A stretch of 63,020 bases of DNA, filler included, from Octopus bimaculoides (taxonomy: Eukaryota), in the NCBI RefSeq assembly GCF_001194135.2. It is 8 parts of 7 records of this genome, joined end to end, with 100 filler letters (N's around TTAATTAATTAA, not from the genome) between each part and the next. Parts side by side here need not be neighbours in the genome. Positions count along the whole stretch, not along the records: positions 1 to 24,679 come from NC_068996.1; positions 24,780 to 31,569 come from NC_068996.1; 6 more parts are not named here. The stretch is one strand, 5' to 3'. Positions 16,358 through 60,928 of this stretch are shown here, piece after piece. The number at the start of each line of letters is the position of its first letter. Positions within the stretch are counted from its first letter, which is position 1. The notes below the pieces were generated by a model that saw nothing but the letters and a program-made list of their open reading frames with translations, was not told the origin of the DNA and did not search any database. Position numbers and translations under genes: made by a program.

Positions 16358-16530
16358 CAGATCAACTTGTTCTATTTCCTTCCTCTCTCTACCTCTCTTT
16401 CAGTTGTATATATATATATATATGTGTGTGTACATCTATGTATATATAATGTTCATATATTATATATTTATACATAATATATGAATATATATCATGTTTG
16501 TACATATATATATATATATAATATATATAT

Positions 16531-16860
16531 ATCTGTAAAAATATGTGACACTTATTCAGTAGCCTTGATAAAACTCCGAGTTTCGGATGCCAGGGTGGGA
16601 ACCCACGCCGCCATCTCTTCAGTTATCCAGCCATTGAAAATTCCTGTCTTTTATAAATTACAGACGTTATTAAGTGTATGAGATGGCTTTATAAATGGCC
16701 GGATAACTAAAGAGATGGCGGCGTGGATTCCCACGGCGGCATCCAAAACTCGGAGTTTTATCATAGCTACCGAATAAGTGTCACATATATTTACAGATAA
16801 ATTCCTCTAATTACATAATATTGAGGTATCTTTCTTTCTTTTCTTGTCCTTCCTATCAAT
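16531..16860. mobile_element. (TA)n-embedded inverted-repeat element (arms about 100 bp, right arm extended about 60 bp), probably PLE-derived
   Basis: atctgtaaaaatatgtgacacttattcagtagcc...ctcttcagttatcc is mirrored by ggataactaaagag...gtcacatatatttacagat. Same family as 25591-26335. Confidence 0.85.
16567..16627 (-). ncRNA. Type I hammerhead ribozyme motif with canonical core
   Basis: GATAA-CTGAAGA-GATG(22 nt)CATC-C-GAAA-CTCGGAG-TT-TTATC. Helix I GATAA/TTATC, core CUGAAGA, helix II GAUG/CAUC, near-palindromic helix III ACTC-G-GAGT, GUU cleavage triplet. Confidence 0.75.
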
Positions 16861-18352
16861 ATNNNNNNNNNNNNNNNNNNNNNNNNNNNNNNNNNNNNNN
16901 NNNNNNNNNNNNNNNNNNNNNNNNNNNNNNNNNNNNNNNNNNNNNNNNNNNNNNNNNNNNNNNNNNNNNNNNNNNNNNNNNNNNNNNNNNNNNNNNNNNN
17001 NNNNTATATATATATATATATATATATATATGGTAAATGAAAGATAGAAGATGGGATATACAAGAGTTTTTATTAAGTATGATGATTGTGTTGACACATC
17101 TAGCATTGATCCCTCACAGGTGTGACACTTAACTGGTTCAGGAATATCCGGTGGTGCAGATGTGTCTCATCTGGTGATGAATAGATATGTGTGTGTGTGT
17201 GTGTGTGTGTTACGTACATACTGTGTGCATGCATATGTATGTGATTTTGTATGTATGAATATATGTATCTTTATATTACACATATAGGGACTTCAAGTTT
17301 TATGCCTGTATGCATAAAATTGTGTTCTTTTAATGCTATTATTTATAAACACCTCCGAAGGAAGAGAGAAATATAAGAGATATATATCACCATAGCCTAA
17401 AATTTCTTTATCACTCATTTTTTTTTCATTCTTTTAACCAATATCTTGGAATCATTGAAGAACAACAATAGCAACAAAAATGTAATTTTATATTTTTTCT
17501 TTGCATAAATATTTTCTTTTTTTTTATTAAAAAAAATAGTGTGTTTTTTTTTTCCTTTTTTTAATTAAAAAAAAAAATTTTTTTTTTAAAATTTGTTATT
17601 TTCAATTTGATTTAATTGTGGAAAGAGAAATCTAATGATACGAATGAGGGGAAAATTTTTTTGACGTCTCCCGAAATGTGAAAGAAAAAAAATAAAAGAA
17701 AAAGAAACAAAAATATACAAATAAAAACTTCAAAGAATGTACCTGAAATAATTTCACATCCCTCTGTGTACACAAGTTAAAATAAATACAAAACGTTTAA
17801 AAACCATTCTCTTTCAAATTCTTACTTATTTTCTCAATTTTGTTTCGTGTTAACATACTCCCCCTTTTATCTTCATTGTCATCATTAGTGTTTTAACATC
17901 TATTTTTCCGTGCAGGCATGGGTCAGATGGAATTCGTTTTTCTGCCTGGATGCTATTGCTGTTGCCTATCCTTACTTGTTTCAACATAGAGTAACAGATT
18001 TCCATATCCAGACATGTTCTTGCAGAAGGTTGGCAACAAAGGACACTGTCTGTATGATGGAGATGTTAGTTTATAACCACCATATGATTCCAAGACAAAG
18101 AGACATAAATAAACACAGTCGCCTTTGTACACACACATGCATGCATACATACACACACGCACATCTATATATAGACACATGACAGGTTTGCTTCATCCTC
18201 CACCCACCAAATTCATTCACAAAGCCCTGGAAGGCTCCAAGGCTACAGTAGAAGATGCCTGAGGTGCCACACACACTGGGACCACATCTGAAACCAAGGA
18301 ATGTCACACACACATTGACATATATTAAAACCTGTCACAAACATATTGTGCA

Positions 18353-18557
18353 GTTCTATATTTAAGAGATGAGGAATTATGTACATTATTTACATTAATT
18401 ATATTTGACGGATATTTGTTCTCATCTTGTTTGTTGTTAACACAACGTTTCAGCTGATATACCCTCCAGCCTTCGTCAGGTGTTTTGGGGAAATTTTGAA
18501 CCTGGGTTTTCATTACTAAGACATTTTTCTATGTTGTCATTATTATTATTATTATTA

Positions 18558-18602
<45 letters not shown>

Positions 18603-18880
18603 TCACTGCCTAGAATCGAATTAGAAATTTTGGGGTTAGTAGCCCGCACTCTTAATCACTATGCCACGAGCATATGGTGTATTGGTTAAGAGCACGGGCT
18701 ACTAAGCCCAAGATTCTGAGTTCTATTCCAGGCAGTGACCTGAATAATAATAATAATAACATTGAAAAATACCTTAGGAATGAGAACCCAGGTTTGAAAT
18801 TTCCCCAAGAAACCTGATGAAGGCTGTTGTGTTAACAACAAACAAGATGAGGACAAATATCTATCAAATGTAAATAATGT
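18353..18880. mobile_element. Head-to-head foldback dimer of a tRNA-headed, HHR-containing non-autonomous retroelement with a 14-bp flanking direct repeat
   Basis: 18351-18666 (-) and 18675-18880 (+) are inverted copies. AAACATATTGTGCA occurs at 18339-18352 and 18881-18894. Confidence 0.85.
18439..18484 (-). ncRNA. Minimal type I hammerhead ribozyme motif
   Basis: AACAC-CTGACGA-AGGCTG(GAGGGTATAT)CAGCT-GAAAC-GTT-GTGTT. Helix I AACAC/GTGTT, canonical core, palindromic AACGTT helix III (dimer type). Confidence 0.75.
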
Positions 18881-19054
18881 AAACATATTGTGCATTGTCA
18901 TTATAGAACTAAATAGTTTCCCTGATTCATTGTGTGATATTATAAATCTCATTTACATTGAAGCTCTCTAAGTATGTACAATTTATATGTATAGTTTATA
19001 GTTCATTCTCCTCACCTTTTAAATAACATTACTTTCCCAGTCAGTGTAGACAAT

Positions 19055-19270
19055 GGAAGCATGTGGCTTAGTGGTTAAGGTGTTGGGCTCATGAGCATAA
19101 GATTGTGATTTCAATTCATGGACTGGGCAGTGTGTTGTGTTCTTGAGCAAAATGTGCTCCAGTCCACTCAGCTGGCAAAAGTGACAGACTAGTGTCCCAT
19201 CCAGGGGTAAATACATACACCATAGAAGCCAGGAAAGTGGCCCCATGAGTCTATATGACTCAGGAAGGAG
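19055..19270 (+). mobile_element. tRNA-derived SINE (family D, internally deleted)
   Basis: TGGCTTAGTGG A box, GATTTCAATTC B-box-like, then GTGTTGTGTTCTTGAGCAA. Confidence 0.75.
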
Positions 19271-19810
19271 AAGTCTTTTTTTTTTCAGCTTTAATGTAGA
19301 CAGCCAGATTAAACAAGTTATTGAATGTAATCCTTTAAATACAAAGAAACAAGTTTAGTAAGACTAGAGTGATGAAGAGAAACAGAATGGGTAGCCATCA
19401 AGGAGGGTTAGGGTTCATCACCCCTCCTTGTCACCCACTAATGATCTCATTCAGAAGAAACACCTAAAGTATTCATTACTAGAATTATCAAGAAAGGCGG
19501 CGAGCTGGCAGAATCGTTAGCACTCTGGGCGAAATGCTTAGCGGTATTTCGCCTGTCGCTACGTTCTGAGTTCAAATTCCGCCGATGTTGACTTAGCCTT
19601 TCATCCTTTTGGGGTTGATTAAATAAGTACCAGTTACGCACTGGGGTCGATGTAATTAACTTAATCCCTTTGTCTGTCCTTGTTTGTCCCCTCTATATTT
19701 AGCCCCTTGTGGGCAATAAAGAAATAAGAATTGATAAAGTTCAGGGGTATTCTCAAAATTCTGAGGCATCATTTGTTTGGGAGGTTCAGATACTGTGGGT
19801 TTAGTTAATT

Positions 19811-20007
19811 ACTTGCAGGGACACTGTATTTCGTTATGCAACCATAATTCACTACAAAGTATATTAAACATTTTATAAGTCAATACTGTAATAAGTCAAT
19901 AGCAATAACACTGCTAACATAGTAGGACATAGTATTGACTCATAAAACATTTAATATTCTTTGTAGTATATTATAGTTGCATAACAAAATACAGTGTCCC
20001 TACAAGT
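19811..20007. mobile_element. MITE-like element with about 75-bp imperfect terminal inverted repeats
   Basis: acttgcaggggacactgtatttcgttatgcaacc...aagtcaatact mirrors agtattgactc...gttgcataacaaaatacagtgtccctacaagt. Confidence 0.8.
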
Positions 20008-20948
20008 GATATGTATGTACCAGCTGTTAGGAATGTGCTTTATATGTAAAATTGGTATATCCAGTAACATTACACTACTATATTTAGTGGCAATTTAAGC
20101 ATTGAGTTTGTGGATGGGTACTGAGGAAAGAGCAAGAATTCCTGAAATATGTATATACACCTAGTACCTATTTTTCCATTCTCCTTGTTTATATTAGATT
20201 TATTCAGACATGAAACATTGTAACAAATCAGTGCTGGCTTTAATTTCTATAAAAAAAATCTATAGAGATAACCTTAACTGTGGGTTTAGGTACAAGATTG
20301 GAAGAGAAAGACATCACTACAAGGATCAGGGCATCTTAATGACACAGTAGACTTCCTATCATCAGAGAACATGGCATCTGCAAAGTGATGATTCATATTC
20401 AGGAGTTCCACTTCCTCTGCTGAAGGTTTGTATTTATTCTGTTGGTTGTAACATTTCAGAAATATTGTGTTACCAAGAGAAGAATGTCATAAAGGGATGA
20501 GTCACCTACTGAAATATTTATGCTGATTGTAAGAGAAAAGTTTTCAGTGTGGCATGTAACTTGTTGAAGATGAGAGAGAATGGATTGAATAGAGTGCATT
20601 GGGATGAACTAGTTCCCATTCTGAGGGTTTCAAGTTTTGTGATATGAGGGCCAGTAATATTGTTCATTCCCTTGTAGATTGTCAGGAGTAATTCTGTTTG
20701 TAGTTATACAGTGCTCATGCAAGAATTATTGTAAATTCTTCAAGAGGAAATGTATACCGCTATCAGAATAGATATGTGATGGCATTTCAAAAATTGAGAA
20801 GTTTTGATAAGCACTTTATAATAGTTTTGGCCATCGTATCTGCTCCAAGAAAGGCAAAAGAGAACCTCAAGAATTCATTCATGAAGTCAGCAAATAGCTT
20901 CTTTTTTTTTAAGTTTAGGGGAAAGGCCCCTTAAAATCAAGACCTAGT

Positions 20949-21117
20949 TAGAGCCACCTTAGCAGCATTGTTGGCCCCTGGACAAATTAATGCAGTGGGT
21001 CCTACAATATTTATTCATTGACAGTAAGCCACAACACACACAGGTCAAAATTGGGCCCCTAGACTTGTGGAGTCGCTGGAAAACTGCCTTCTGTGTACAT
21101 GCCCTAAGCTGGCCCTG
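20949..21117. mobile_element. Harbinger/PIF-like MITE remnant
   Basis: Left end tagagccaccttagc matches the reverse complement of the right end (cagggccagcttaggg). Internal ggcccc motifs. Confidence 0.45.
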
Positions 21118-21169
21118 GGTCTAGTCTCTCAAAGGCCTGAGTAACCTTTATTACATGAGCAGGTAAAAA

Positions 21170-21542
21170 AAAGAGTAAAGACTCCTTCATCCATGAATAA
21201 TCTAGAAAGCTCCACTCCGTGGCACAAGTATGGGCAAGATTGCTTATGGAAGACCAGCAGTTTCCCATGCATACAAGCCTCCCCTCTCTACGCCACTAAT
21301 GTTATCCAAGGGGAAAGACAAGGGCTGATACAGCTTGGCACCAGTGATGTCGCTACGCATTTCTACAGCTGAGTGAACTGGAGCAACATGAAATAAAGTG
21401 TCTTGCTCAAGAACACAACACATCCCAGTTCAGGAATTGAACTTATTACCTCGTGATTGTGAGCCTGACACTAACCACAGAGCCATGCACCTTCACTGAT
21501 TGTGAGCCCAATGCTCTAACCAGTGAGCCATGCGCCTTCACA
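21170..21542 (-). mobile_element. tRNA-derived SINE family D with duplicated head (other copies 38211-38545 on - and 39380-39535 on +)
   Basis: Minus strand begins GTGAAGGCGCATGGCTCACTGGTTAGAGC...; the head is present twice. Confidence 0.8.
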
Positions 21543-22571
21543 TGAGCAGGTATTATGTTATAAAACCTCAGCTTTATTTTAGTACATGTGGAAGATGTAG
21601 GGATCATTCATTTGATATTCTCTACTGACTAGAAAGATTTAAGGATGACATGAAAAGTCTGCAAGACTCACTTTGAGTGAAAATATAATCACCGATAATG
21701 GTCACTGTAACCTCATAGCACCAATTGTTTTGGCTACCCTTCCATCCCCATTACATAGTTTACACCTTTACAGTTGATACATTCTTTCTGAACCCTTAAA
21801 CAAAGAGTTTGGTTTGGAGGAGGATTACCTTGGCATTTATTAGCTCCTACAACAGTTACTTCTTTCCTATGGATTCTCTTTTAAAGCTACGGGGTTTTTA
21901 AAGAACTGTGAGATTATTAAACAAAGAAGTAAGTGGGACAGTGATAGTGGTGAAACCACAGATAGTCTCACCAAACAGAATGTTGACAAAAGACTTATGC
22001 CTAAGGATTTTTTTGTCTCTCAATGACATTACAGCAAAGATCAGGGATAACAGAGAATGTGATACACCCAAAATAAGTCATTTTAAAATTCTACACTGGC
22101 CTGATACACGTCAGTAAGGAGTAAGAGTGGTAGCTGCCATACATACATACATATATATATAGTAAATTCAAATTACGATGAACGTAAACAAACAAACGAA
22201 GTTTGCCTTTAGAAGCGTTGAGATGTCTTAGAAATTTAAAGAAGTGATTTTAAATTCTCAAACGCAGAATAATGCTCAAACACATTATCTTGTGCTATAT
22301 TATATATATAGATGAAATTTGGAGAAAAACAAAAGTTGAAGTCAGGTGTATGAACAACAAGCAGGTGTATTAGTTTGATGCTCAGGAAAATGAAACGTGA
22401 AAAAGTCTTTTACATTTCAAGTCTATGCTCTTCAACAGAAAGGAATAAGAGAAAAAAAAAAAAAACAGAGAGAGAATGAAAAAAACCTAGAGATTTAGCA
22501 GTCAAGCATGGCAACTGATTAGAAAATGAGTTTGAGAGAAGAGGTTGTATGTGTATATATATATATATATA

Positions 22572-22742
22572 TCATCATCATTCTCATCAGCATTGTTTAA
22601 TGTTCGTTTTCCATGCTAGCATGGGTTGGATGATCTGACTGAGGACTGGTGAACCAGATGGCTGCACCAGGCTCCAATCTGATCTGGCAGAGTTTCTACA
22701 GCTGGATGCCCTTCCTAACGCCAACCATTCTGAGAGTGTAGT
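22572..22742 (-). mobile_element. RTE LINE 3' terminus (other copies 24508-24679, 28852-29005, 29300-29810, 31338-31569, 52003-52198)
   Basis: (CAT)n-CGTTTAACGTCCGCTTTCCATGCTAGCATGGGTTGGACG...CTGGATGCCCTTCCTAACGCC, at least six copies. The RTE assignment is from recollection of the family. Confidence 0.75.
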
Positions 22743-22814
22743 ATATATATATGCACACACACACAAATGTATATATACTTACATAAATGCATACATAAAT
22801 CTATATATGTATAT

Positions 22815-22988
22815 AGGGAGAATTCACAAAAAAGCAAAAGACGAAGACAGGTGGTGTAGAAAACACACAGATGTATTATTTTAACGCTCAGGAAGTGAAA
22901 AAGTTTTTAACGTTTCGAGCCTACGCTCTTCCACAGAAAGGAACACAGAAAGAAACAAGGAGAGAAAATAAAGAATGTGTAGTGGCTC
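22815..22988 (-). mobile_element. (TA)n-flanked short repeat with HHR-like motif, putative PLE pseudo-LTR (other copies 22320-22505 -, 37061-37240 +, 57170-57348 -, related copy 62700-62900 -)
   Basis: Four copies share GTTCCTTTCTGTNGAAGAGCGTAGGCTCGAAACGTWAAA...TTCCYGAGC with divergence. Confidence 0.7.
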
Positions 22989-23017
22989 TGTATATATATG
23001 TATATATATATATATGT

Positions 23018-23210
23018 ATATGCTTTATTTAAAAGCAGCAGAAATATAACAAAAAAACTGTTACTCTGAGTTTCACGTTCCCGTTCATCGAACAGTTTTG
23101 TTCAATGAACGGGAACGTGAAACTCAGAGTAACAGTTTTTTGGTTATATTTCTGCTGCTTTTAAATAAAGCATATTACTCTACCTCTGGCATGTGCTTAC
23201 TCCAGTATAT
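23018..23210. mobile_element. Near-perfect foldback (about 77-bp arms) with an HHR-like motif in each arm and a roughly 35-bp extension on the right
   Basis: atatgctttatttaaaagcagcagaaatataac...gttcatcgaaca is mirrored by tgttcaatgaac...taaagcatat. The minus arm reads AAAACTGT-TCGATGA-ACG(GGAA)CGT-GAAA-CTCAGAG-TA-ACAGTTTT. Confidence 0.8.
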
Positions 23211-23845
23211 ATATGTATATATATATAGATTCAGATGAATATGGTACTTAAGTTGAGGCACCAGAATTTAGTATGGTATTATCCATACAATTTCAAAATA
23301 AGGTGATTAAAATCAAAATAAGCAACAAGGATGGGGATTTTAGGTTAAATTATACTAATGTGCCCNNNNNNNNNNNNNNNNNNNNNNNNNNNNNNNNNNN
23401 NNNNNNNNNNNNNNNNNNNNNNNNNNNNNNNNNNNNNNNNNNNNNNNNNNNNNNNNNNNNNNNNNNNNNNNNNNNNNNNNNNNNNNNNNNNNNNNNNNNN
23501 NNNNNNNNNNNNNNNNNNNNNNNNNNNNNNNNNNNNNNNNNNNNNNNNNNNNNNNNNNNNNNNNNNNNNNNNNNNNNNNNNNNNNNNNNNNNNNNNNNNN
23601 NNNNNNNNNNNNNNNNNNNNNNNNNNNNNNNNNNNNNNNNNNNNNNNNNNNNNNNNNNNNNNNNNNNNNNNNNNNNNNNATATACACACACAATGGGTTC
23701 TTTCATCCACTAACAAGACTTTGGTAAGCTTGGAGCTATAGTAGAAGACACCTAATCTGCCACACAGAAAGAATGAGCCCAGAACAATTTAGTTGGGAGG
23801 CAAACTTAATCACACAGCCATGTCTCTTTCTGTATGTGTAGACAT

Positions 23846-23885
<40 letters not shown>

Positions 23886-23999
23886 GGGAGAGGTGAGGAG
23901 GATGACATCAATGGGCAGGAAGCAGGAGGCATGGTCCCGGCATTAGCTGCATGGGCAGAGGCGAGTATACCGTGTGTGTGTGTGTGTGAATGAATGAAC

Positions 24000-24480
24000 A
24001 AACAGATCAGCTTCTGCCATTCAGCAATGCATACAATACAAGTGAGCACATGACCTCCAGCAAATGAGTAAGAGGGTGAGAGTTGCGACTGCTGAGGTGT
24101 GAGGTGGAGTGTGATGATGACAGCGAAGGTGAGGGCACTCAAGTGCGGACAGACAAGGTGGCAGGGGCAGTACATTGGTGATTTGCCAGTCTTGTAGGGT
24201 CAAGAGGTATGTACCCACATGGTTGGTTGCTAGGCAGAATAGAGAAATGAGAACAGCCCTTCCACACGACCACCTCATCCGAACATGTGCAACTTGTGGA
24301 AAGGTGTGTCTTTCAGTTGAGGGATTGAAAAATGATGTTAAAAGAATTCATACTGTGCTACCTGTTCCCTCTGCCAGCCAGCACAGCTGTGAATTAGGCA
24401 ATAAAATGTGTAAATCTTTGGCCAGGTTCGAGTCATCAAGGATCTCACATTACATCATGAATGACTCATTTCAATGATTC
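24000..24480 (+). pseudogene. RTE-type LINE C-terminal remnant with zinc-finger-like motif
   Basis: TCATCGKVCLSVEGLKNDVKRIH resembles the RTE C-terminal motif CxxC...S..GL..H...H. Confidence 0.55.
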
Positions 24481-24506
24481 TTTCTAGCAATGGCTTTGCT
24501 TGCATA

Positions 24507-24537
<31 letters not shown>

Positions 24538-24723
24538 GTTTAACGTCCGCTTTCCATGCTAGCATGGGTTGGACGATTTGACTGAGGACTGGTGAAACCG
24601 GATGGCAACACCAGGCTCCAGTCTGATTTGGCAGAGTTTCTACAGCTGGATGCCCTTCCTAACGCCAACCACTCAGAGANNNNNNNNNNNNNNNNNNNNN
24701 NNNNNNNNNNNNNNNNNNNNNNN

Positions 24724-24735
24724 TTAATTAATTAA
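24724..24735. other. Assembly linker TTAATTAATTAA inside N gaps (also near 31614, 36675, 40578, 50056, 52263, 60973)
   Basis: An identical 12-mer is always flanked by N runs on both sides and gives stops in all six frames. Confidence 0.9.
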
Positions 24736-25357
24736 NNNNNNNNNNNNNNNNNNNNNNNNNNNNNNNNNNNNNNNNNNNNTACCAGTCCCCAAGCCTAGGT
24801 CTCTGCTTGATCCAATTACCAACGTCCGTTAAGGACGTTAATTGCGGAAGGTAGAACTGGACATGCGGTGACCACACCTGCTCTCCATTCAGGTAAAGCT
24901 AAAGGTGCCTCAACCTTAACGCGAATTTTCACATCCTCAGCCAAGGCATCCCTAGCCCACCCTTTAGCGGTTTCTGGCAGCAGACAGAGCGCTTCACAAG
25001 TGGCTTTCCTCCCTTCCACAAAAAGCGGAAAAGGATTCTTTCCAACTTGTTCAGTCACAAATCGGGGCAAGGCACCAGCCATTCCTGCACCCTTACAAAC
25101 ACATTGATGCATCAGCGAGGATATATATATATATATATATATTACTTCATATGTAAACAAACATAAGTTTGTTTTTAAAGTGTTGAAATGTATTGTAGAA
25201 CAAGTAGGGAGATATATTTTTCAACACATAAATACTGAACAGTATATATAAAGGTTCCACAATACATTTCAATGCTTCAGAAACGAACTTATTTACATAT
25301 GATGTAATCTATATGACATCTAGCATTTCTAGATTATTTTATAACTTCTAAAATTTC

Positions 25358-25462
25358 AGAAAAATTTGTTGGTCAGCAGTTTAGCTTAGAGGTAAGCCCT
25401 CTAACTGGATATTAGTGGGGTGAGAGTTCAATTCTCATGGCTGGTTGCCGACAAATGTTTCT
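25358..25462 (+). pseudogene. tRNA-like pseudogene or SINE head inside short inverted arms
   Basis: A-box-like TAGCTTAGAGG and B-box-like GAGTTCAATTC. D arm GCTT/AAGC, 7-nt loop CTGGATA, T-arm-like TGAGA/TCTCA. Confidence 0.5.
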
Positions 25463-25551
25463 GCTCTTAAAAGGATTTTATCCTATATATATATATATAT
25501 ATATATACTGTCCAATATTTACACATTGAAAATATATCTTTCTACTTGTTC

Positions 25552-25590
<39 letters not shown>

Positions 25591-25592
<2 letters not shown>

Positions 25593-26330
25593 CAGAAAAG
25601 GTAAGACAACAAAAGAAAGAAAGAGACCTCGATATTATGTAAATAGAGGAATTTATCTGTAAATAATATGTGACAATTATTTGGTAGCCATGATAAAACT
25701 CTGAGTTTCAGATGTTGGGGCGGAAACCCATGCTGCCATCTCTTCAGTTATCGGGCCATCGAAAAAAAAATGCTATGAAAATGACCGTTAAACAAAGGGA
25801 AATTATTGTGTGACTGACCGTTATTAAGATAAAAGAGTTATTAGAATGACCGCTAAGTGAGGGGAGGGAGTAAAGGTAAGGAAGTGAAAGTGTGCATAGT
25901 ATTCGTGTAAGCGCACCAGTCCATACATACACATGCACGCCCACACACCCACGTACATGCGCCTATATGTATATACTCATCCTCCCTCTTTTGAAACACA
26001 CACATGCTCACCAACACATTCGCCAAAAAATATATACATACCCGCATACATGCTCACACACACACACAACACATGCGCAACAGGCTTGCACACATACACA
26101 CGCACACAAAAAGGGTCATACACACGCACACAAAAAGGGTCATACACACGTCTATATACGTTTATATTTTATTGCTTTTTTACACTGTTTTACACTTTTT
26201 TCTATATTTTGCCTTTAGCCTTATTTTTTCTTGTGCAGATAACTGAAGAGATGGCGGCGTAGGTTTCCGCCCCAACATCCAAAACTGGAGTTTTATCATG
26301 GCTACCGAATAATTGTCAGATATTATTTAC

Positions 26331-26335
<5 letters not shown>
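25591..26335. mobile_element. Second member of the 16.5-kb inverted-repeat family, with a longer unrelated spacer
   Basis: Same arms as 16531-16860; here the roughly 60-bp extension is on the left arm. Confidence 0.85.
25692..25752 (-). ncRNA. Type I hammerhead ribozyme motif with canonical core
   Basis: GATAA-CTGAAGA-GATG...CATC-T-GAAA-CTCAGAG-TT-TTATC. Confidence 0.7.
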
Positions 26336-26386
<51 letters not shown>

Positions 26387-60674: not shown

Positions 60675-60878
60675 TTCAATTTTTTCATCGATGCGGTTGT
60701 ACATAGGGTAAATGTGCTTGAGAGTTGTGGTCTCTTTGGTTTGTTTTAGTGCTATTGACACTGCCGGATTGAATGGTACTACCCAGGTGTCAAAGCCATA
60801 ATGATATCCATAGGGTAGCTGATGATGTAGGTATGTTGGATTGTTAGTATGGCTGTGAAATAGTATTATAACACATCC
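60675..60878 (-). pseudogene. Possible Helitron Rep fragment
   Basis: Stop-free frame of about 68 codons containing FDTWVVPFNP, similar to the Helitron motif DNRWVVPYNP. Only one motif supports this. Confidence 0.3.
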
Positions 60879-60883
60879 TTTTC

Positions 60884-60928
<45 letters not shown>

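What the first reader, a model, noticed from the sequence alone, without database searches (positions are those of the whole stretch)
16531..26335. Apparent MITEs at 16.5 and 25.6 kb are inverted pairs of hammerhead ribozymes
Seen: the arms of both elements each contain GATAA-CUGAAGA-helix II-GAAA-ACUC(N)GAGU-U-UUAUC. The two elements share arms but have unrelated spacers (under 100 bp versus about 480 bp). Both sit in (TA)n and have a roughly 60-bp extension on one arm only. Inference: they are PLE-derived retroelements with an inverted pseudo-LTR rather than DNA transposons, and can carry variable cargo between the arms. The helix II loop holds its own hairpin (GTGGG-TT-CCCAC), unusual for minimal HHRs.
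Basis: partly seen in the sequence, partly recalled or inferred. Interest (0 to 1): 0.72.

Follow-up and report, generated by a model that had tools for sequence, protein, structure and literature searches.

The report
Penelope retrotransposon stumps with mirrored hammerheads
The two fold-back repeats are stumps of a very common Penelope-type jumping gene in what is probably an octopus, each made of the element's hammerhead-motif end plus a mirror copy of it, with middles taken from the same element rather than foreign cargo; this layout is already in print, and self-cutting is predicted but untested.

Summary
The arms are real and are not MITE ends. They are the hammerhead-bearing pseudo-LTR of a Penelope-like retroelement (RT plus C-terminal GIY-YIG, Hydra-clade motifs) with over 2,000 candidate copies in this probably octopus genome. 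The 60-nt extension is the Penelope 'tail', which in tandem copies runs on into the ORF leader. The 'cargo' idea fails: spacer 1 is a 32-nt piece of the element's own ORF, spacer 2 its own 3' UTR, and 31 of 34 sampled inverted pairs have wholly element-derived interiors. Most arms are solo (58 of 92 insertions); both window junctions are unique. Only one of the four arms is an intact hammerhead; the core is invariant across five subfamilies (11 of 11 vs 23 of 51 flank positions) but decays freely inside copies. Opposite-strand hammerhead pairs, long helix II, inverted pLTR and one-sided tail are all published, and the scan noted this layout elsewhere in this genome. Modest extras: 32 of 34 pairs join one short-ended and one tailed arm, and 70 of 100 arms stop within 98 nt of the cut site with none in the next 50. 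New family of a known kind.

The parts
16504..16532 (.). (TA)n target, left flank of E1
   Evidence: sequence
16531..16647 (-). E1 left arm: inverted pseudo-LTR copy ending at the short 3' end (no tail)
   Evidence: 91% identical to L064 over 121 nt
16567..16627 (-). Only intact type I hammerhead motif of the four; predicted cut between 16572 and 16571
   Evidence: cleavage not tested
16655..16686 (+). 32-nt fragment of the element's own ORF N-terminus (the RWK region), with 7-nt fillers on each side
   Evidence: 30 of 32 identical to L076
16694..16799 (+). E1 right arm, sense pseudo-LTR; hammerhead 16702-16762 with G5A and G12A
16800..16862 (+). Penelope tail of E1, then an assembly gap
   Evidence: same sequence continues into the ORF leader in tandem copies L064, L067, L070
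25556..25590 (.). (TA)n target, left flank of E2
25590..25653 (-). Penelope tail of E2
25654..25760 (-). E2 left arm, sense pseudo-LTR; hammerhead 25692-25752, core intact, distal helix II damaged
25761..26160 (-). 3' UTR of the parent element, contiguous with the arm
   Evidence: 87-90% identical to L039, L058, L303 over 420-470 nt including the arm
26149..26237 (+). Next-upstream 3' UTR piece of the parent element, in inverted orientation
   Evidence: 90% identical to L303
26238..26335 (+). E2 right arm: inverted pseudo-LTR copy, short 3' end; hammerhead with G12A and 1-nt loss in helix III
26333..26362 (.). (TA)n target, right flank of E2

Best explanation
E1 and E2 are one-off, truncated insertions of a Hydra-type Penelope-like retroelement, each made of the element's hammerhead-bearing pseudo-LTR plus an inverted second copy, likely produced when the element's endonuclease cuts both strands of a (TA)n target and both ends prime reverse transcription, one likely at the short start site and one at the tail start site. 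Shown: the arm is the 3' end and, in tandem copies, the 5' leader of a ~3-kb RT/GIY-YIG element; two fixed 3' ends; (TA)n flanks; self-derived middles; unique junctions. Inferred: the two short cDNAs stop or jump template and are joined in the middle; most are primed on the 5' pseudo-LTR of a transcript and run out near its 5' end; the hammerhead worked (probably as a dimer or with protein help) in the active source elements and has no role in these stumps.
For: Order RT - EN - 3' UTR - arm in ORF-bearing loci, and L031 = inverted arm without tail, ORF, arm with tail. Direct tandem copies arm - tail - leader - ATG in L064, L067, L070, L076, L079 (core to ATG about 260-270 nt). Hydra motifs RWK, DKT, CxCX5C, CxxC, CxH in single copies (definition). 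758 exact matches of a 32-nt arm motif, 0 for the reversed control. In the first 100 listed of these (92 insertions): 44 short, 55 tailed, 1 other 3' end; 81 of 91 scorable ends in (TA)n; 34 inverted pairs of which 32 short+tail, 2 short+short, 0 tail+tail (P about 3e-8 against random pairing); 31 of 34 interiors element-derived. Both window junctions found only at their own place. 70 of 100 arms end within 98 nt upstream of the predicted cut, 0 at 99-149, 30 beyond. Core 11 of 11 invariant across five subfamily majorities vs 23 of 51 flank positions, position 7 varies A/C/U, position 17 U/A, one G-C to A-U swap in helix I. In vitro precedent: a Penelope protein cuts and extends both strands and starts at two sites bracketing the tail (PMC11167929).
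Against: No cleavage assay; Rfam finds no hammerhead. Covariation is thin: 2 pairs with two-sided change, matched by 365 of 500 shuffles, and subfamilies are related, so the core-vs-flank test overstates independence. Pfam finds no RT domain and GIY-YIG only below its cut-off (E 0.008); no tree with reference Hydra proteins was built. No pile-up of 5' breakpoints at the predicted cut (2 of 100 exactly there) and no read starts or ends there in three RNA runs. The 5'-end boundary is read as a transcript start without RNA evidence; at least 3 of the 70 short arms are internal deletions and 3 abut gaps. Arkhipova et al. 2013 favour self-priming on an antisense template for the same inverted layout. 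All ORF copies seen are broken.
Confidence: 0.85

Rival explanations
1. Same element, other route: the inverted arm arises by self-priming (fold-back) on an antisense template or on the nascent cDNA, not by priming from both target ends.
For: Proposed for the same layout in rotifer Penelope elements (PMC3846280 passages); many pairs join with no spacer.
Against: Fold-back of one molecule does not by itself explain why one arm has the short end and the other the tail end in 32 of 34 pairs, nor jumps such as E1's ORF fragment and E2's displaced UTR piece.
Confidence: 0.25
2. A non-autonomous retroelement family whose inverted arms carry variable foreign cargo.
For: Capture of host DNA between pLTRs is reported for rotifer Penelope elements; outside the unbiased sample, L020 holds about 176 nt not matched by the element panel between its arms.
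Against: Both window spacers are self-derived; 31 of 34 interiors are element-derived and the 3 others read as two separate insertions (L250) or later insertions with duplications (L281, L301); junctions are unique.
Confidence: 0.04
3. MITEs of a DNA transposon with terminal inverted repeats and TA target sites.
For: Inverted ~100-nt arms in TA-rich sites.
Against: 58 of 92 insertions have one arm only; arms are truncated at variable inner points; the long members encode RT and GIY-YIG; no unit is amplified.
Confidence: 0.01

Closest known systems
Hydra-clade Penelope-like elements (Craig et al. 2021, PMC8557442), including Hydra-1_Obim of Octopus bimaculoides
   Same: C-terminal GIY-YIG, RWK, DKT, CxCX5C, CxxC and CxH motifs, (TA)n targets, type I hammerhead near the 3' end; helix III 'actc-g-gagt' as in Hydra-2_aMil and Penelope-16_HM; an inverted 5' copy is listed for Penelope-13_HM.
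   Different: Not the published octopus family: Hydra-1_Obim has a different hammerhead sequence and a visibly diverged protein (compared by eye); this family has clear direct pLTRs, five subfamilies and a longer 3' UTR.
Minimal type I hammerheads of metazoan PLEs (Cervera and de la Pena 2014, PMC4209133)
   Same: Helix II of 7-8 bp, short helix I, extra base at the foot of helix II, palindromic helix III, mostly solo copies, and dual motifs 100-700 bp apart on opposite strands.
   Different: Here the extra base is on the 3' side of helix II, helix II has a further 4-bp extension in subfamily A, and helix I can extend past a mismatch.
Inverted pLTR plus one-sided tail of Penelope insertions (Arkhipova et al. 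2013, PMC3846280; Frangieh et al. 2024, PMC11167929)
   Same: [quoted passage not shown]
   Different: Tail here is about 63 nt rather than 30-40 nt, and the ORF starts about 260 nt downstream of the hammerhead rather than inside it.
Non-LTR retrozymes (Cervera and de la Pena 2020; Li et al. 2026 preprint)
   Same: Short non-coding units with PLE-type hammerheads.
   Different: Retrozymes are direct tandem units; these are inverted one-off stumps.

Membership tests
EN+ Penelope-like element | Single ORF with RT and GIY-YIG endonuclease linked to the repeat | tested here: met
   Pfam GIY-YIG only E 0.008, RT none; 295 homologues at E<=1e-20, mostly ~700 aa
EN+ Penelope-like element | Pseudo-LTR from partial tandems, also inverted at the 5' end | tested here: met
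   direct in L064, L067, L070, L076, L079; inverted in L031 and 34 of 92 insertions
EN+ Penelope-like element | Tail extension on one end only | tested here: met
   32 of 34 pairs short+tail
Hydra clade | C-terminal EN; RWK and DKT motifs; CxCX5C linker; CxxC and CxH around the conserved E and N | tested here: met
   on 10 single copies; each motif seen in several; definition
Hydra clade | Absence of the CCHH motif in the endonuclease | tested here: inconclusive
   none evident by eye; no alignment to CCHH-bearing references
Hydra clade | (TA)n insertion | tested here: met
   81 of 91 scorable 3' ends
Hydra clade | Length generally under 3 kb | tested here: inconclusive
   about 2.9-3.2 kb estimated from motif distances in different copies
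Hydra clade | Groups with Hydra families in an RT tree | not tested
Type I hammerhead ribozyme | Conserved core, three helices, NUH cut site | tested here: met
   met in E1-left and in 95 of 126 subfamily-A arms (core); not met in E1-right and E2-right; no Rfam hit
Type I hammerhead ribozyme | Covariation supporting the helices | tested here: inconclusive
   87% cells paired vs 30-52% slid, but only 2 pairs with two-sided change, 365 of 500 shuffles as high
Type I hammerhead ribozyme | Self-cleavage | not testable with these tools
   no read ends at the site, no breakpoint spike
MITE | Amplified as a uniform two-armed unit | tested here: not met
   junctions unique; 58 of 92 insertions single-armed
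MITE | Autonomous partner is a transposase element | tested here: not met
   long members carry RT and GIY-YIG
Non-LTR retrozyme | Direct tandem units each with a hammerhead | tested here: not met
   both window elements are inverted pairs

The most novel reading that the evidence does not exclude
This family records the Penelope insertion mechanism in hundreds of copies: an asymmetric RT dimer primes one target strand at the short site and the other at the tail site on the 5' pseudo-LTR of the transcript, making retrovirus-like 'strong-stop' cDNAs that end at the RNA's 5' end about 60-98 nt above the hammerhead cut site and must jump template to build anything longer; solo arms, MITE-like pairs and full-length copies would be outcomes of one reaction.
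Probability: 0.35. Interest if true: 0.5.

Novelty: new member of a known kind. Interest (0 to 1): 0.22.

Why it matters
As a feature it is ordinary: it shows that repeat annotation can file Penelope stumps as MITEs, and adds a second, abundant Hydra-type family to this genome. The only part a specialist may use is the count-based support for two-ended, two-site priming and for a sharp 5' boundary of the short cDNAs, which bears on the still open question of how Penelope elements form inverted pLTRs and tails.

Tried and rejected
Rfam scans gave no hammerhead hit. The repeat finder on the whole window was swamped by microsatellites. A spike of 5' breakpoints at the predicted cut site, which would show cleavage in vivo, was sought and not found: 2 of 27 partial arms in similarity-picked loci and 2 of 100 in the position-ordered sample. 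Splicing into the acceptor-like site just above helix I was considered; arms ending there share no upstream exon. No run on record as RNA was listed as a holder. Three raw RNA runs (about 6% of each read) cover the arm about equally in both directions, leave the ORF nearly bare and show no start or end pile-up: consistent with passive read-through, uninformative on the source elements. No ORF piece of the element is detected in the window by tblastn. Foreign cargo, MITE and retrozyme readings rejected as above. Whether the family is already in Repbase or Dfam could not be checked.
Full report
Observation. The finding's range crosses a pack joint (24680-24779); E1 (16531-16862) and E2 (25590-26335) lie about 29 Mb apart on contig C16 of a 2.34-Gb genome. 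The organism is probably an octopus: window 60819 closely resembles the 3' end of Naiad_Obim printed in a supplement (by eye). Each element has two inverted arms of about 100 nt and a ~63-nt extension on one arm. All four arms show the layout of a type I hammerhead, but only E1-left is intact; E1-right has G5A and G12A, E2-right G12A and a 1-nt loss in helix III, E2-left a damaged distal helix II. The supposed hairpin in loop II is a continuation of helix II. Rfam reports no hammerhead.

What the arm belongs to. A search of the genome with E1's tailed arm gave 2,418 candidates, 40 scored. Two of the 30 loci fetched carried RT- or GIY-YIG-like coding sequence next to the arm; that ORF gave 2,659 candidates. 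In ORF-bearing loci the order is RT, endonuclease, 3' UTR, arm, and L031 reads inverted arm without tail, ORF, arm with tail. Copies that reach the 5' end show arm, tail, leader and start codon in direct order (L064, L067, L070, L076, L079), so the arm is a pseudo-LTR and the extension is the start of the next unit, the Penelope tail. Single copies carry RWK, DKT, CxCX5C, CxxC and CxH, the motifs that define the Hydra clade (section 11 of PMC8557442). Pfam support is weak; 295 homologues at E<=1e-20 are mostly unnamed ~700-aa proteins. No tree was built. The family differs from the published Hydra-1_Obim in hammerhead and protein (by eye).

The spacers are not cargo. E1's middle is 32 nt of the element's own ORF (30 of 32 identical to L076) between two 7-nt fillers; E2's is 400 nt of 3' UTR contiguous with the tailed arm plus the next-upstream 89 nt of UTR inverted. 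Each junction occurs only at its own place among the scored candidates. For a sample not ranked by similarity I took the first 100 listed of 758 exact matches to a 32-nt subfamily-A motif (all of C1 and the start of C2), 92 insertions with 1.5-4 kb of flank. 34 have an inverted partner, 58 do not (7 of these abut a gap). 31 of 34 interiors are wholly element-derived; L250 looks like two insertions, L281 and L301 like later insertions. One locus outside this sample, L020, has about 176 unexplained nt between its arms, so occasional capture is not excluded.

Ends. 3' ends fall in two classes, 44 short and 55 tailed of 100, and 81 of 91 scorable ones lie in (TA)n. Of 34 pairs, 32 join a short to a tailed arm, 2 are short+short (one of these enters a gap 6 nt into the tail) and none tail+tail (P about 3e-8 at 50:50). 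Inner ends: 70 of 100 lie within 98 nt upstream of the predicted cut, none at 99-149, 30 further (13.5 expected in the empty zone under one geometric decay); at least 3 of the 70 are internal deletions and 3 abut gaps. There is no spike at the cut itself (2 of 100).

The ribozyme. Among 196 full arms picked by similarity, five subfamilies keep 11 of 11 core positions invariant against 23 of 51 flank positions (Fisher p 6e-4, subfamilies not independent); position 7 varies A/C/U, position 17 U/A. Within subfamilies the core decays like the flank (A: 3.5% vs 2.7%), so selection acted on source elements, not on inserted copies. Covariation is thin: one clear G-C to A-U swap in helix I, and 365 of 500 shuffles match the count of two-sided changes (16 chosen copies). 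The inverted pair cannot act as a ribozyme pair in one transcript: only one arm is sense, and E1 read through is predicted to fold into a hairpin of -170 kcal/mol. RNA reads from three runs cover the arm in both directions alike with no start or end pile-up.

How it likely works. Shown are the element map, two fixed 3' ends, (TA)n targets, asymmetric pairs and self-derived, unique middles. Inferred: the endonuclease cuts both strands of (TA)n and each end primes a cDNA, one at each start site, as the anole Penelope protein does in vitro (PMC11167929); the cDNAs stop or jump and are joined, giving a head-to-head pair that mimics a MITE. The sharp inner boundary suggests that most priming is on the 5' pseudo-LTR, with run-off near the transcript start; this has no RNA evidence. 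The published alternative is self-priming on an antisense template (PMC3846280).

What is known. Cervera and de la Pena 2014 report dual minimal hammerheads 100-700 bp apart on opposite strands, 7-8-bp helix II and an extra base at its foot. Craig et al. 2021 describe inverted 5' copies, the one-sided tail and Hydra hammerheads with the same helix III. Two earlier notes of this scan reached the same reading on other pieces of this genome, seen after my reading was formed. I found no count of short-tail pairing or of the inner boundary in six searches; the library lacks most subscription papers. Seen: PMC8557442 passages, section 11, supplement hits and part 2 of 59; PMC4209133 and PMC11167929 parts 1-2 of 4; PMC3846280 passages; preprint 10.64898/2026.07.22.740005 part 1 of 5 (its supplements closed); PMC7229834 search listing only. 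Unread supplements may already hold this family.

Verdict. A real feature, correctly called Penelope-derived, wrongly called cargo-carrying or structurally unusual: a new family of a known kind, interest 0.22.

Noticed in passing
window 18356-18520(-) and 18773-18895(+): A second, unrelated hammerhead-motif repeat, also as a head-to-head pair; each half is preceded by (AAT)n and a short tRNA-like head (18591-18745).
   Followed up: partly
L281:3684-3946: An inverted pair of that second family is inserted inside the hammerhead core of this family's arm, with an apparent ~12-nt duplication.
   Followed up: partly
window 60800-60900(+): Closely resembles the 3' end of Naiad_Obim as printed in the supplement of PMC8557442 (by eye).
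   Followed up: no
L004:571-1145 (also L301): A 575-nt element with terminal inverted repeats interrupts the ORF; a probable true MITE.
   Followed up: no
L012:1470-1501 and E1 16641-16647: A branch-point, pyrimidine tract and CAG resembling a 3' splice site, and an initiator-like hexamer, lie just above helix I, where many arms end; an intron ending at helix I is reported for D. virilis Penelope.
   Followed up: partly
L034, L043, L054, L120 vs L058, L048: The 3' UTR comes in short (about 530-570 nt) and longer (660-810 nt or more) versions between ORF end and hammerhead.
   Followed up: no
L155-L176 (subfamily D): This subfamily has a 7-nt shorter helix II without the extra base and A at the cut position, with the core unchanged.
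   Followed up: partly
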